A stretch of 62,900 nt of DNA, filler included, from Bonamia ostreae (lineage: Eukaryota): assembly GCA_040357525.1 (NCBI GenBank). It is 49 parts of 49 records of this genome, joined end to end, with 100 filler letters (N's around TTAATTAATTAA, not from the genome) between each part and the next. Parts side by side here need not be neighbours in the genome. Positions count along the whole stretch, not along the records: positions 1,295 to 2,488 come from JBDODL010002394.1; 48 more parts are not named here. One strand, given 5' to 3'. Shown in pieces: positions 1-8,333 of this stretch (the first letter of the stretch is position 1; the number at the start of each line of letters is the position of its first letter). Below the pieces are notes generated by a model that saw nothing but the letters and a program-made list of their open reading frames with translations, did not search any database and had not been told where the DNA came from. A program made the position numbers and the translations under genes.

Positions 1-1194
1 TCAATTAAATGATGCATTTGCATCAACTCTTTTCCATTTTGCACCGCAGGGGAGGGGGGGGGGGGCATACATACTTCTGAAACATTTTTTGTTATGCATT
101 GTGTTTATGTATTATAATCATTAAAGTACTTCAATGTCAACTGCATTGCAAAAGTAAGGAAATGAATGGAAAAGTATGATGATTCTTCCAAATGATTCTC
201 AACGATACTCTCAATTTGATAACGTTTACGCATGCAATGTTTCCATGATTAAAATGATGCAAGCGATTGACGTCAATGTTGTAATAGTTCTGTGTGGGTG
301 GAATGGGTACCAAGTACCAACATGCTGAATGGACTGGTAAATCGGGATTCCAATCATTTCAAATAAATTGTTTAATTTTCACATGTTACCCCTACAAATT
401 AACTATTGACCAACTTAAGTTTCAATTTTAACTGTTCCCTCCCCATGAAAATACCTTCCCAAGCCTTTGTAATAACTTCAGAAACATCACAACTGCTCTA
501 GCAAGATAACCATATTAAATGTTTTACCAAAGACAGAATGACAGACAGGTATACAGACTGAGATAAATGGCAAACACTAACTCGAATATTGGGACAAAAT
601 TGTACAACAAATTAACTACAATCATGTGATTTTAGAGGAAGGACATGTTCCATTATTACGTATATCGATTTCTGAGATCATACTTACGAGAGCATTTCCT
701 CAACGATTCTGGTATTATATCCATATTGATCACCTTAATCGCAAAATTAACATCAAGTAAAAAGGATACAAATGGACGTACTCGCACAGCAACCTTTATA
801 TTTTCGTTAGCCATTTCTGTTTGCAGATCGTATAATATGACAAATCGTTTTAAATGTTTCTGTCAAGTACCCTGACTGCAGTCAATGGCAACGATCTAGT
901 TTACTGAGCTAAGCTGTTAGTTTAAGGTAAGCTGAACCTAGTTAATAATTATATAGCTACATGGAATTATATCTACATGTAACTAATAGAATATATTTTC
1001 TTACGTTATAATTGATATAGTTGTTGCTATAAGACATTATATAATAGATGTTGCAATACGTTAAGCCGGGTGTTAGAATAACACAACATACGCAACATTT
1101 CTCAATGGTATACATGTATAATTTTTCTGTGACCTTTCACGTACAATTAATTTGAATTCTATCTCCTTCCTACAGAAAACAAAAAAAAATCATG

Positions 1195-1294: not shown

Positions 1295-2488
1295 GGTATC
1301 TTTGTCTCCTGACAATTCGTATTCGTTGTCACAAATCACCTTTATCGTCTTCCCTTGTCTGTGCCCCGATTCGCCAACGACGTTTGAATTTGGTATTGTG
1401 ACAGTACTGCACTTCTCTGAAAGTTAAAGTGGTTACCATGTACACAAAGCAATGTCGGTTTCCAAACAGCGACCAGATTTTCCTTGTCGAATTCACAGTG
1501 CACTGTTCTCGTCTCCTCTTCCAAAACAAATCCAATTTCACAGCCGATAGTGAGACTATCGTTTATTTCGACTCTATTCGGCGTTGTTGTGAATCCGTTT
1601 GAAATTTGGAAAACAGGACATTTTTCTATTTTTTGAAATTTTTTCGATTTCAGAAAAAACTTTTTTGGCAAATGATGCGTCGATTCCAGGTAGCTGCTTT
1701 TGATATTTGGTTGTATATGCACTTTATTGGTGCGTCGACGGATGGTTCATAAATATCGTCACATTTAACGTGCACCGATTCCCCTATTCGCACGTTTTGG
1801 AGATCCGTGCTATCTGAATTCGGAACGAACAACGGTGCACATTTTTCTTATTTACAAAAATTGAAACCAAAAAATAGCTAAATTTTTTAAACGATTGAGT
1901 CGTCGATTTTCCAATTTAATTTAAAAAAAATTTAATTTCAATAAAAATTACAAAAATTTTCGCGCAAAAATTTTATTAGAAACGTGACGACTCATAAAAA
2001 GTGTAACAATTATAATAAAACAAAAATTTAGTAAAAAAATTTCGCACAAAAATAAAAAGTTACAATTTCAAGTATAAAAAGGTTTTAACAAAATTACAAA
2101 AAATAAAAACTTTTTACACAAAGAGGCGACTGACTCCATTTAGCACTGTTCGTTTCGACGTCATATAAACAATTTAAAGTTTTCGGTCCATCTCCAAATT
2201 CAAATTGTTCGTCACATCTCACATTTATCTTATTCTCGATCTCAATTCCCGTTGTTCCAATAACGTTCGAGTTCGGTATTGTGATGGATTCACAAGTCAC
2301 TTTTCATTTTAAGTCAAAACTTTTTTGGCAATAAAAAGATTTTGTCCATTTCGGTCGTTGCTGATTTTGGTCGTATTCACATTTGATGTTTGCGTCGCCA
2401 ATCGCGACGTAGTACAAATTGCATTCCGGGTTGATAACAGTGCCAATTGGCCATTCGAGAATGTCGTCAATGTTACTGTTTGTTATCT
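1295..2488 (-). CDS. Tandem Sushi/CCP-like module protein, partial at both ends, >=5 modules (protist-type contig)
   Basis: Exons 2488-2321, 2299-2111, 1846-1661, 1625-1437, 1416-1295 joined by GT-AG phase-1 introns of 21, 264, 35 and 20 nt. Each complete exon gives ~62 aa with C..I.NS..C...Y/F...C...W....C, e.g. TCESITIPNSN...VRCDEQFEFGDGPKTLNCLYDVETNSAKWSQSPLC. Confidence 0.8.
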
Positions 2489-3882: not shown

Positions 3883-4437
3883 ACCAAAATTCGAAAAAAT
3901 GTAAAAAAGAAATGTTCCAAAAACTCCCACGAACAATTCGCGAAACTGCGCGACGGCGACCAAGTCGATTGGGCAAACTCCCAATCCGGCGGACACGTCT
4001 TAACGACTGGCAACATCTACAAAAAAGGCATTTTCCGATTCCGAAAGAGACCGATGAACACATTTATCTCTCCGATCACCGCTGTCGGCGACTGCTACGC
4101 TTTCCAGCCGTCGAATGGCTACGTCGTCCTCGGAATGCGTTCCCCAATATTCCCAACTACTTTTGTCTACGAGTCGGTCAACGCGGACGCGAACCCGTCG
4201 AGCGGTTCGATGCCGAAGACGGTAAAAGTCTCCGCTGTTGACGAGAATGAGCGTTTGGTCGATTTGTCGCCGGACGGAAATGCGTTTGCTTTGAAGGAAA
4301 GTGAGATTAGACAAAGTTTCGAGTTGAAAAGAATGGAGAAAGCGGTGAAGCGGATTCGAGTCGACTTTGTGGAGAATAACGGGAATAAAGATTTTACGTG
4401 TGTCTACAGAATCCGTGTTTTCGGGGAGAGAAAATGA
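3883..4437 (+). CDS. SUN (Sad1/UNC-84) domain protein, C-terminal part (protist-type contig)
   Basis: Open frame from the contig edge: VDWANSQSGGHV, GDCYAF, SSGSMPKTVKV, and the terminal SUN signature RIRVDFVENNGNKDFTCVYRIRVFG; stop at 4437. Confidence 0.9.
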   Translation, partial: TKIRKNVKKKCSKNSHEQFAKLRDGDQVDWANSQSGGHVLTTGNIYKKGIFRFRKRPMNTFISPITAVGDCYAFQPSNGYVVLGMRSPIFPTTFVYESVNADANPSSGSMPKTVKVSAVDENERLVDLSPDGNAFALKESEIRQSFELKRMEKAVKRIRVDFVENNGNKDFTCVYRIRVFGERK

Positions 4438-5076: not shown

Positions 5077-7817
5077 NNNNNNNNNNNNNNNNNNNNNNNN
5101 NNNNNNNNNNNNNNNNNNNNTTAATTAATTAANNNNNNNNNNNNNNNNNNNNNNNNNNNNNNNNNNNNNNNNNNNNTTTAAGGCAACAGCTGTATCACAG
5201 GGATCTGCTGTCTGGGAAGCTACCATGAAATATCAGATAATAATGGATGGAGTTTCCGGGGGAATCCTACATACCTTTTCAAATAATGAGATGTCAAATC
5301 GATGCTCCAATATTTGGTAAAATGAACTAGGTTAACTTACCTACATGTTGAACAATACAAAAAAATATTATCAATAATTTTCCCATTGTGGATATATTGA
5401 TATATACAAGCAAAACACGTAGTCTTTATCACTTCAGATATTCGATGTTGCTAAACGTAAATATAGGGATGTATACAAAACATAGGGAGCCCAAACCCTT
5501 TATAATTCATTTATATACTACCTATTCGGGTCACGTGGCTAGAAAATTTACAAAAATCCCCTCAAAAGTTTCCATGTGGCTGATTGTGATATTTAAAGTG
5601 TCCAAATTTTAGTATCTGGTGTTTTATTTTTAGTTGAATAGACTGGATACAATACAACGATAGACATTGTCTCTTTAACATTGGTAATGTATGAACATGC
5701 ATTTCATTTCAAATGATTTGCAATTTGTTTATTATGTTTTTTAACACTGCCACTTAGATCCACTATTGCTGATACATGCATGTCCAACCGTTTGCTGTCT
5801 TTAAGCCAATGGATTTCTAAAGTGATTTGACTTCCTTGTCTATAGACGGTATTGATGAATAACTCAATGTAGTTGTTTTTAAAGATAATATATCTATAAA
5901 AAAATTAATTAACATTGTACAAGTAAACGTTGTCCGTCTTAGTATATGCATGTATGAACTCGCCAACTGCATATTCTATTGCACACCAAATTCTGAAGCA
6001 ATGGGACGTATCAACATGTTACATACCTTATTTGATCTGATCTTCAGCTGGGGATTTATACTTCCAGGGAAATGTGTTTGAAATAATATCTAAAAGTTCT
6101 TGAAAAAATGTCTAACATTTATTTTAATATAAAGGACTTTGTTTTGGATGTTTAGAAAAGGACATTTGAGTAGTCAGTGCAAGAAGAAACTGAAATACCC
6201 TGTATGTTCACAACTACGCCTTACTATAATGTAAAATGAAAATCAAGTGGTCGGTAAAGAACACAAACCTTCAACATTTGCTACACAAAATAGAGTCTCA
6301 TCAACGTCTTTACAAGTTAAGGGTTACTGATTCGTTACATCGCATTAACCCTTGATATCAGTCACCATTNNNNNNNNNNNNNNNNNNNNNNNNNNNNNNN
6401 NNNNNNNNNNNNNTTAATTAATTAANNNNNNNNNNNNNNNNNNNNNNNNNNNNNNNNNNNNNNNNNNNNTAGCTGCCCAAAAATGCGATATAAAGAAAAT
6501 TTTGGCCCAGCAAAAATTTTAAAAAGTAGCTCTTTCGAATAGTTCATTTTAACAAATTTAAAAGCTCAATTAAACAAGAATGGCTAAATTTGGCCGAACA
6601 AAAAAAATTTTTTTCCGATCAAAATAACCAAAAAGAAATAAGAGAATCGATTTTCTTTAAAAGTATCGAAATAAATTATGATTTTCTGTACAAAGACGGA
6701 AAAGACATTTTTGTTTTGACAAAAAATCGATTTTGTTCAATTTCCGAACATTTTAAAGCTGAAAAAGATAATTGGAAATTTAGTTTTGCGAAGGGCATTT
6801 TTGCAGCGTGGCTGTCTGTGTGTTGTGGTTTGTTCGGTGTTGATTTTATGAAAAAATTTATTTGGTTTCATGACGATTCGAGTGAATAATCAAAATTTTG
6901 TAAAAACAAAATTTCCATTTTTTTTTTATCAAAATTCGCAATTTCAGAACTTAAAAATAAAAAATTTTACTTGATGTAAAATAATTTTTGCTTCTATTTT
7001 TTGTGATTCAAAAGTTAAATCATTTTTGCCAATACGACCAAAAAATTTCAGTTTTTACATTTTAACAATTTNNNNNNNNNNATTTCAAAATCGCTTTTAC
7101 AAACAAAATTTCTTTTTTTGCTGTTTAACAATCTCAAAAATTGGTTTAACTAAACAAAATATTAAAATCGAAAAAATTGTTTTTTGGTCGAAAAAATTGT
7201 TTTCAATTTTTTAATAGAAACAACAAAATATTTTTTGCAGATTTACCATCAAAATGGTTAATTTTTGCAGTTTATTTAAATGGAATGGTTGATTTTAACA
7301 GTTTATCCAGATAAACTTTTAGCACTGACAAAATTTCAGCAATTAATTTTTTTAAAAATTGGTAAATTATTAAAATGGGAAAAGACAAATCCATTTATCA
7401 ATATTTAGTTCCCTCGAAACTGTTATAAAAGACGATTCTTTTTCTGATAGAGCAGATTTTGACTAATATTTCCAAAAATATTAAAAGATTTGTTGCTGTT
7501 AACAAAACGATCAGGCTCAGAATTAAAATTTCTTCCATTTTAAAAACTATCAAATTTGTTTTCCAATAATTTTTAAAACTATCAAAATTTTCGTTTGTTC
7601 AATATCAAAAATAGATTTTTCGTTTTTGTAACATTTCATTATTTTTGCAATTGTTTTAATTGNNNNNNNNNNNNNNNNNNNNNNNNNNNNNNNNNNNNNN
7701 NNNNNNTTAATTAATTAANNNNNNNNNNNNNNNNNNNNNNNNNNNNNNNNNNNNNNNNNNNNTCATTTGACAATGACAGAAAAATACACACACACTTCAT
7801 ATTTAAAATAAGAACAT

Positions 7818-8333
7818 ATGGAAAAATACCAGATAGACGCTATTAGAAGCGAAAAGCGTAAATTAATGCATCGACTTATCAAACAGTCGAAGAATGCAGC
7901 AGACGCAGAAGACATATATCAAAACGCAATGTTGAAAATATGTCGATTTGCCGGAAAGAAAGAATTTGCAAGTAAAGATCACTTCCGGGCCTGGATGTTT
8001 CACATTGTGGTAAATGAAGCTATTAACTTCTTCAAGTACAAACAACGTAAATGGGGAAGTATTGACACTAATGTAGATGTCGATATCGAATGTGGTAAAC
8101 GGCTCTCAATTGAGAGTATCGATGAAGAAACATTGCTGCAAATACTGACAGAAACATCCGATACACTTCCGCCAGGTAGAAAGGAGGTGTTTTATATGAC
8201 ATACATTCAAAATTTGAGTGAGGAGGAAATCGCTAATCGAATGTGCATAGCACAGTCCACCGTTAGGACCAGGAACTGGGAATCACGAAAGAAATTTAAG
8301 GAGAACATAAAAAAAGTATCATGGTTAGGATGA
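7818..8333 (+). CDS. Sigma-70 family, ECF-type RNA polymerase sigma factor (bacterial or phage contig)
   Basis: 171-aa intronless ORF; region 2 DAEDIYQNAMLKI...FRAWMFHIVVNEAINFFK; region 4 HTH LPPGRKEVFYMTYIQNLSEEEIANRMCIAQSTVRTR. Confidence 0.9.
   Translation: MEKYQIDAIRSEKRKLMHRLIKQSKNAADAEDIYQNAMLKICRFAGKKEFASKDHFRAWMFHIVVNEAINFFKYKQRKWGSIDTNVDVDIECGKRLSIESIDEETLLQILTETSDTLPPGRKEVFYMTYIQNLSEEEIANRMCIAQSTVRTRNWESRKKFKENIKKVSWLG

What the first reader, a model, noticed from the sequence alone, without database searches (positions are those of the whole stretch)
1295..2488. Tandem Sushi/CCP array in the putative parasite, one module per phase-1/phase-1 exon
Seen: the three complete exons are 189, 186 and 189 nt, each one 4-Cys/Trp module, and all four introns are phase 1 at the inter-module linker. 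The introns are protist-type (20, 21, 35 nt; GTT/GTA donors), so this is not a host gene. Established: class 1-1 CCP exons are typical of animal complement regulators and selectins, and some pathogens use CCP proteins for complement evasion or adhesion. Inference: a surface or secreted host-interaction protein, arising either by independent exon-duplication expansion or by old transfer from an animal followed by intron miniaturisation.
Basis: partly seen in the sequence, partly recalled or inferred. Interest (0 to 1): 0.72.

Follow-up and report, generated by a model that had tools for sequence, protein, structure and literature searches.

The report
Sushi-repeat surface protein, oyster parasite
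This is a piece of a gene from a single-celled oyster parasite that strings together Sushi (complement-control) protein modules, here one per exon as in animal genes, and it belongs to a large family of probable surface adhesion proteins.

Summary
Observation confirmed: three full exons (189/186/189 nt) and two cut ones each encode one module, and four linker introns are phase 1. Pfam and a predicted fold both give Sushi/CCP. The contig bins with the protist by composition and splice style, and a paralog is labelled Bonamia ostreae by its source. The fragment is one of many: about 110 module hits on 23 of 24 loci examined, and 40 of 40 linker introns allow phase 1 against 33% in background genes. 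Whole paralogs read signal peptide, head (vWA in several), CCP array, transmembrane helix, often an acidic tail. Best reading: the stalk of a membrane-anchored adhesin or receptor, expanded by symmetric-exon duplication inside the parasite lineage. Complement regulation is untested. Animal transfer is neither supported nor excluded: no affinity to bivalve modules, and a dinoflagellate also has a long CCP array. The scan noted phase-1 module genes before on other DNA, in this genome and in other protists.

The parts
2321..2488 (-). Exon cut by the contig end; CCP module 1 without its first cysteine
   Evidence: no Pfam Sushi match alone; 29% identical to module 2
2300..2320 (-). Intron 1, 21 nt, phase 1, GTT donor, AAG acceptor; holds an in-frame stop
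2111..2299 (-). 189-nt exon, CCP module 2
   Evidence: Pfam Sushi 22.6 bits; CCP fold
1847..2110 (-). Intron 2, 264 nt, phase 1, 81% AT, stops in all three frames
1661..1846 (-). 186-nt exon, CCP module 3; closest to a module of contig C98 (37-39% identity)
   Evidence: Pfam Sushi 15.3 bits, under cut-off
1626..1660 (-). Intron 3, 35 nt, phase 1
1437..1625 (-). 189-nt exon, CCP module 4
   Evidence: Pfam Sushi 22.5 bits
1417..1436 (-). Intron 4, 20 nt, phase 1, GTA donor; the least supported of the four
   Evidence: missed by the ab initio model
1295..1416 (-). Exon cut by the contig end; first two thirds of CCP module 5
   Evidence: Pfam Sushi 17.1 bits, under cut-off; 40% identical to module 2

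Best explanation
The contig is an internal fragment of a long type I membrane protein of the haplosporid parasite. Shown: five tandem CCP modules, one per symmetric phase-1 exon. Shown for paralogs only: a signal peptide, an N-terminal head (a vWA domain in several genes), arrays of up to 17 CCP modules, one transmembrane helix and often an acidic tail. Inferred: the modules form a disulfide-locked beads-on-a-string stalk that holds a ligand-binding head away from the parasite surface, and may add binding sites of their own; the protein acts as an adhesin or receptor in recognition of, and uptake by, oyster haemocytes. Inferred: arrays grew by duplication of frame-neutral phase 1-1 exons inside the parasite lineage, long ago, with intron loss at about a third of the junctions.
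For: Four-cysteine modules of this subtype occur on only four contigs in three searches: C2393, C98, C288, C569 (C239 appears once weakly). C98 (13 modules) and C288 (8) end in a hydrophobic helix; C569 starts with a signal-peptide-like segment. Pfam VWA passes the cut-off in 3 of the 17 segments scanned (E 1.7e-17, 9.4e-13, 5e-11; C565 twice, C562 once) and is sub-cut-off in C73. Five tails are acidic and share a P-E/S-I-like end motif by eye. Of 66 module junctions, 40 need or allow an intron, and all 40 have a phase-1 solution (39 only phase 1); 20 have no intron and 6 are unresolved. A phase-blind gene finder gave 80 of 93 phase-1 introns in 21 CCP-bearing models, against 176 of 532 in 117 background models. 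The deposited model of the C98 paralog (P0263, named Bonamia ostreae by its source) splices the same linkers at most junctions. For 59 of 72 parasite modules the best BLAST match is another parasite module, not one of 4244 outside modules. Both haemocyte and parasite take an active part in internalisation (PMC6104086, passages).
Against: Neither end of this gene is on the contig and no overlap links it to C569, C98 or C288, so its head and anchor are inferred. The heads of the closest 5' paralog (C569) and of C239 did not score as vWA above shuffles (44 and 69 of 200 shuffles as high). The C98 and C288 tails are short and not acidic. 13 of 72 modules, including module 4 of this contig, match an outside module best. 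No functional or expression data for this locus.
Confidence: 0.6

Rival explanations
1. Function rival: the array is a complement or opsonin regulator or decoy that binds oyster C3/thioester or C1q-domain proteins, like poxvirus VCP or factor H.
For: Nearly all structural matches are complement regulators or receptors (SPICE, CD55, CD46, factor H, CR2). Pathogen CCP mimics are established (own knowledge).
Against: Identity to those chains is 14-31%, the top hit is the IL-15 receptor alpha sushi domain, and solved CCPs are mostly complement proteins, so the list shows fold only. vWA heads and 13-17-module stalks fit a spacer role as well. The parasite lives inside haemocytes and gains from uptake.
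Confidence: 0.15
2. Origin rival: the founding module came by transfer of an intron-bearing animal gene, and its introns then took on the parasite's style.
For: Class 1-1 modules are described as the hallmark of animal exon shuffling (PMC8001218, passages and first sixth of the text). Of 20 top outside proteins looked up, those with a species name are animals except one dinoflagellate; two have no usable name. The best outside matches to the six-cysteine subtype (P0230, P0216) are SVEP1-like entries and outscore the dinoflagellate protein.
Against: Outside matches are at generic CCP level (median best 34 bits). In a quick tree of 115 modules and 61 columns the parasite modules cluster by subtype (11 label changes against 40 for shuffles), none nests among bivalve modules, and 20 six-cysteine modules group with the dinoflagellate ones (SH-aLRT 91, unstarred). 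Phase can match by chance one time in three. Cysteine-rich models outside the C5 gene are phase-1 biased too (31 of 40 against 138 of 483), including kringle-PAN genes. The tree is mostly unresolved, and the library ranking favours long animal arrays.
Confidence: 0.2
3. The symmetric exons serve variation: exon skipping or recombination among paralogs gives many surface variants.
For: All full exons are multiples of three in one phase. Contigs C565, C562 and C5957 break at an identical stretch, a sign of recent duplication or conversion.
Against: Modules within this contig are only 25-40% identical to module 2. Variants against two public runs are 8 nonsynonymous to 2 synonymous, as neutral expectation (0.79) predicts. 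No joints were seen in those two DNA runs.
Confidence: 0.08
4. The contig is oyster DNA left in the parasite assembly.
For: 31 of 49 window contigs score host-like, so contamination is common here; the best-scoring Sushi hit in the genome (C763) is itself host-like.
Against: This contig scores parasite-like (+0.048; exons alone +0.032; CpG o/e 1.71). Its GTT donors and 20-35-nt introns match the background (473 of 532 GTT, mode 19-23 nt). Its paralog on C98 shares a contig with a ribosomal protein S3 that is at most 53% identical to any of the 120 best hits listed.
Confidence: 0.02

Closest known systems
Sushi/CCP/SCR module (Pfam PF00084); animal CCP-array membrane proteins such as CR1, CR2, CD46 and selectins
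   Same: Four-cysteine plus tryptophan module of about 60 residues, CCP fold, tandem array before a transmembrane helix (paralogs), phase 1-1 exons.
   Different: In a non-animal; 14-31% identity to solved CCPs; introns of 19-264 nt with GTT donors; the split codon is never glycine in 40 junctions (14 Lys); several paralogs carry a vWA head.
SVEP1/polydom (the automatic name given to paralog P0263)
   Same: vWA plus many CCP modules.
   Different: Whole paralogs show only head, CCPs and a membrane anchor; no EGF or pentraxin match in the segments scanned. The name is a similarity label.
Apicomplexan TRAP/MIC2 invasins (features recalled, from no call)
   Same: Signal peptide, vWA head, repeat stalk, one transmembrane helix and acidic tail in C565, C562, C73.
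   Different: Stalk is CCP, not thrombospondin; 0 of 9 tails have a tryptophan in the last five residues. It may work like them but is not a member.
Plasmodium apical sushi protein / RON1 (PMC3215230, passages)
   Same: Sushi domain in a secreted, anchored protein of a protist parasite.
   Different: One sushi domain within a single exon and a GPI anchor; no array and no exon-per-module layout.
Dinoflagellate CCP-array protein P0225 (Polykrikos kofoidii by its source)
   Same: 32 stretches match the parasite profile; six-cysteine pattern like C565/C562; Pfam Sushi E 1e-42.
   Different: Transcript-derived, so no intron data; less like the four-cysteine subtype of this contig.

Membership tests
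Sushi/CCP domain | About 60 residues, four cysteines, tryptophan before the last cysteine | tested here: met
   3 of 3 full exons
Sushi/CCP domain | Pfam PF00084 gathering score | tested here: met
   2 of 3 full modules above cut-off, the third below with E 0.028
Sushi/CCP domain | CCP beta-sandwich fold | tested here: met
   Model of module 2 only; all listed matches are CCP-bearing entries, best Z 7.4, rmsd 2.7, 61 aligned
Sushi/CCP domain | C1-C3 and C2-C4 disulfides | not tested
   Model coordinates were not read
Class 1-1 exon module | Module flanked by phase-1 introns at both boundaries | tested here: met
   4 of 4 here; 40 of 40 family linker introns allow phase 1; 20 of 66 junctions have no intron
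Class 1-1 exon module | Intron splits a glycine codon (proposed cause, PMC8001218) | tested here: not met
   0 of 40 split residues are glycine; linkers may have drifted
Regulators of complement activation (CR1, factor H, CD46, VCP) | Binds C3b/C4b with cofactor or decay activity | not testable with these tools
   No binding data
Regulators of complement activation (CR1, factor H, CD46, VCP) | Sequence affinity to these modules above other CCPs | tested here: inconclusive
   14-31% identity, no ranking above the IL-15 receptor module; tree unresolved
SVEP1/polydom | vWA, EGF and pentraxin domains; secreted | tested here: not met
   For whole paralogs (C562 gene 1, C73): head, CCPs and a transmembrane helix only. 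This contig's own ends are unknown.
TRAP/MIC2 invasins | N-terminal vWA with MIDAS motif | tested here: inconclusive
   Met in paralogs C565 and C562; unknown for this gene; the closest 5' paralog C569 does not score as vWA
TRAP/MIC2 invasins | Thrombospondin repeats in the stalk | tested here: not met
   Stalks are CCP; no TSP1 match in 17 segments scanned
TRAP/MIC2 invasins | Acidic tail with near-terminal tryptophan (recalled) | tested here: not met
   Acidic in several, tryptophan in 0 of 9

The most novel reading that the evidence does not exclude
A rhizarian parasite evolved animal-style class 1-1 exon shuffling on its own and used it to build a family of vWA-CCP invasins, analogous to TRAP but with Sushi stalks, that drive uptake by oyster haemocytes; this contig is the middle of a giant member, possibly C569-C2393-C98 joined, with more than 20 modules.
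Probability: 0.25. Interest if true: 0.8.

Novelty: new variant of a known kind. Interest (0 to 1): 0.55.

Why it matters
A review asks why exon shuffling is restricted to animals and why class 1-1 modules dominate (PMC8001218). A non-animal with dozens of phase 1-1 CCP exons, phase-1 vWA-CCP joins and phase-1-biased kringle genes makes both questions testable from an independent lineage, and the glycine explanation already fits it poorly. For oyster disease, the family gives named candidates for the parasite side of haemocyte entry, for which the papers read name only HSP90. Against excitement: the domain is common, paralogs already carry automatic Sushi/vWA names in public records, function is untested, and the scan has noted the same gene layout elsewhere.

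Tried and rejected
No RNA holder listed for this stretch: no evidence on expression. Homolog search with the five window modules, longer proteins: 0 of 620 candidates passed, weak evidence. vWA query: 2 of 658. Thymidylate synthase not found, so the DHFR-TS fusion test failed. The polyubiquitin junction shows no inserted residue, so that recalled rhizarian marker gave no support. The S3 search did not place the lineage. Single-sequence fold of the C239 head was unusable (pLDDT 30); Atlas search of the C569 head gave only leads under 0.9. The idea that C569 and C239 heads are decayed vWA domains looks right by eye but failed against shuffles. No end overlap links this contig to eight family contigs. 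The careful tree did not finish, only the quick one was read, and no one-clade test was run. The metagenome locus scan could not run on so divergent an alignment. Literature: searches listed no paper on Sushi or vWA surface proteins of Bonamia or Ascetosporea; PMC11069148 has 0 hits for sushi in the listing and 0 in 4 supplements held as text; supplements of PMC9329632 could not be read and may annotate these transcripts; supplements of the bioRxiv Rhizaria transfer preprint were not seen (passages only).

Full report
Setting. The window is 49 unrelated contigs of about 1.2 kb joined by N spacers. The finding is the whole of one, G000:C2393, and has no second DNA match in the 10.3-Mb assembly. 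The assembly holds a mitochondrial-type contig with an atp1-like frame, read by eye, which animals lack (own knowledge). A paralog of the finding is named Bonamia ostreae by its source. I therefore treat the organism as this haplosporid oyster parasite.

Observation. Confirmed: exons 168 (cut), 189, 186, 189 and 122 (cut) nt on the minus strand; four GT-AG phase-1 introns of 21, 264, 35 and 20 nt, each seven bases after the last cysteine codon of a module. Pfam Sushi passes its cut-off in 2 of 3 full modules. The model of module 2 (pLDDT 84) matches CCP-bearing chains only, at modest scores usual for so small a domain. Two public DNA runs of two studies hold the locus, introns included, at about 99% identity, one in a single contig with 10 differences, so it is not an assembly artefact. 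Splicing itself is not shown by RNA, and the fourth intron was missed by my gene finder.

Parasite, not host. A composition score trained on 33 large-contig stretches against 17 low-CpG window contigs puts this contig among the 18 of 49 parasite-like ones. Self-trained gene models on 35 loci (117 genes, 532 introns) show GTT donors in 473 and a length peak at 19-23 nt, like this gene's short introns. The closest paralog, on C98, shares its contig with a ribosomal protein S3 at most 53% identical to any of the 120 best hits listed.

A family. PF00084 gives 37 matches on 23 contigs, 20 over the cut-off. A profile iterated on 24 fetched loci gives 110 module hits on 23 of them, 76 at E below 0.001; being self-trained, these E-values are optimistic. 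There are at least three subtypes: four-cysteine (this contig, C98, C288, C569), six-cysteine (C565, C562, C73 and the distal modules of C98 and C288) and the C239 type. Models: C98, 13 modules then a hydrophobic helix; C288, 8 modules then a helix; C239, a head, 17 modules, and a downstream helix with an acidic tail; C565 and C562, two tandem genes each, with a signal-like segment, vWA-type head and 4-5 modules seen (Pfam VWA over cut-off in 3 of these 4 heads). Five tails share an acidic make-up and a short end motif by eye. This contig could be the middle of a gene that starts on C569 and ends on C98 or C288, but no overlap shows it.

Exon layout. Of 66 junctions between neighbouring modules, 40 have an intron solution and all 40 include phase 1; 20 have none and 6 are unresolved. 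So one module per exon is the rule but not universal. The phase-blind finder gave 80 of 93 phase-1 introns in 21 CCP-bearing models against 33% in the background, which itself includes 9 introns of one CCP gene. Twelve other cysteine-rich models have 31 of 40 in phase 1 against 138 of 483 for the rest; these include kringle-PAN genes, but several carry divergent CCP-like repeats and two are intracellular, so the set is not clean. The split residue is never glycine, against the proto-splice explanation in PMC8001218.

Origin. A profile of 41 modules found 6085 proteins at E<=0.001 among 1.84 billion; the best 150 were listed. The only close one is the deposited C98 paralog. Of 20 looked up, the named ones are animal arrays from sponge to turtle, that paralog, and one dinoflagellate protein with 32 matching stretches. 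For 59 of 72 parasite modules the nearest match is another parasite module. The quick tree clusters modules by subtype, nests none among bivalve modules, and is otherwise mostly unresolved. Expansion inside the lineage is thus supported; the source of the founding module is open, with inheritance from a protist ancestor somewhat favoured over transfer from an animal.

How it most likely works. Shown: modules, fold, exon symmetry, family architectures. Inferred: a rod of disulfide-bonded modules that projects a binding head, metal-dependent where it is a vWA domain, from the parasite membrane, and a tail that couples to sorting or cytoskeletal machinery. The parasite takes an active part in its own uptake by haemocytes (PMC6104086, passages), which makes an adhesin role the best guess (0.6). 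It resembles TRAP/MIC2 in plan (recalled) but fails membership on stalk type and tail tryptophan. Complement regulation remains possible and untested (0.15).

Novelty. The domain is well known and paralogs carry automatic names. I found no paper that discusses the family (searches; PMC11069148 passages, section 10 and 4 supplements; PMC9329632 passages, supplements unseen). Earlier notes of this scan report phase-1 module genes in this genome and in other protists; they are unchecked leads, seen after my own counts. Verdict: real, a new variant of a known kind, interest 0.55.

Noticed in passing
window 3883-4437 (+): 3' part of a SUN-domain (Sad1_UNC) gene, Pfam E 1.7e-18, parasite-like, followed by a tandem repeat to 5076.
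   Followed up: partly
window 7812-8333 (+): 173-aa frame that looks by eye like a bacterial or phage ECF sigma factor; probably a contaminant contig.
   Followed up: no
whole window: 31 of 49 contigs score host-like by composition, so the short-contig tail of this assembly is heavily mixed.
   Followed up: partly
L058 (G000:C763) 286-447 (-): The best-scoring Sushi match in the genome is host-like in composition and is probably an oyster exon.
   Followed up: partly
L046 (G000:C1173) 3' end: Polyubiquitin junction has phenylalanine in place of the start methionine of the second unit and no inserted residue; the first unit has a 23-nt intron.
   Followed up: no
L115 (G000:C756), minus strand: Gene with a vWA head split by a short intron, followed by further cysteine-rich domains, one CCP-like by eye.
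   Followed up: partly
L095 4933-6432 (+); L059 4301-4717 (-): Kringle plus PAN genes with mostly phase-1 introns, one followed by unnamed cysteine-rich repeats.
   Followed up: partly
L073 430-5615 (-): Two tandem cysteine-rich repeat genes without a passing Pfam match; 10 of 11 modelled introns are phase 1.
   Followed up: partly
L041 1513-6426 (-) (G000:C5): 1448-aa model with 13 of 13 phase-1 introns, divergent CCP-like modules and a glycine-rich transmembrane helix like rhomboid substrates (likeness recalled).
   Followed up: no
G000:C216 68-400 (-) and C2921: Two rhomboid protease matches; the C216 one lies on the same contig as a CCP-bearing gene.
   Followed up: no
L031, L032, L025 (C565, C562, C5957): Two contigs with the same two-gene vWA-CCP layout end in an identical stretch with which C5957 begins: a collapsed recent duplication or conversion.
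   Followed up: no
L057 (G000:C7503 10001-20000): Mitochondrial-type contig with a long unassigned frame present twice.
   Followed up: no
P0195: Unnamed 2214-aa protein with 35 canonical Sushi domains on metagenome contigs of 125-300 kb; source unknown.
   Followed up: no
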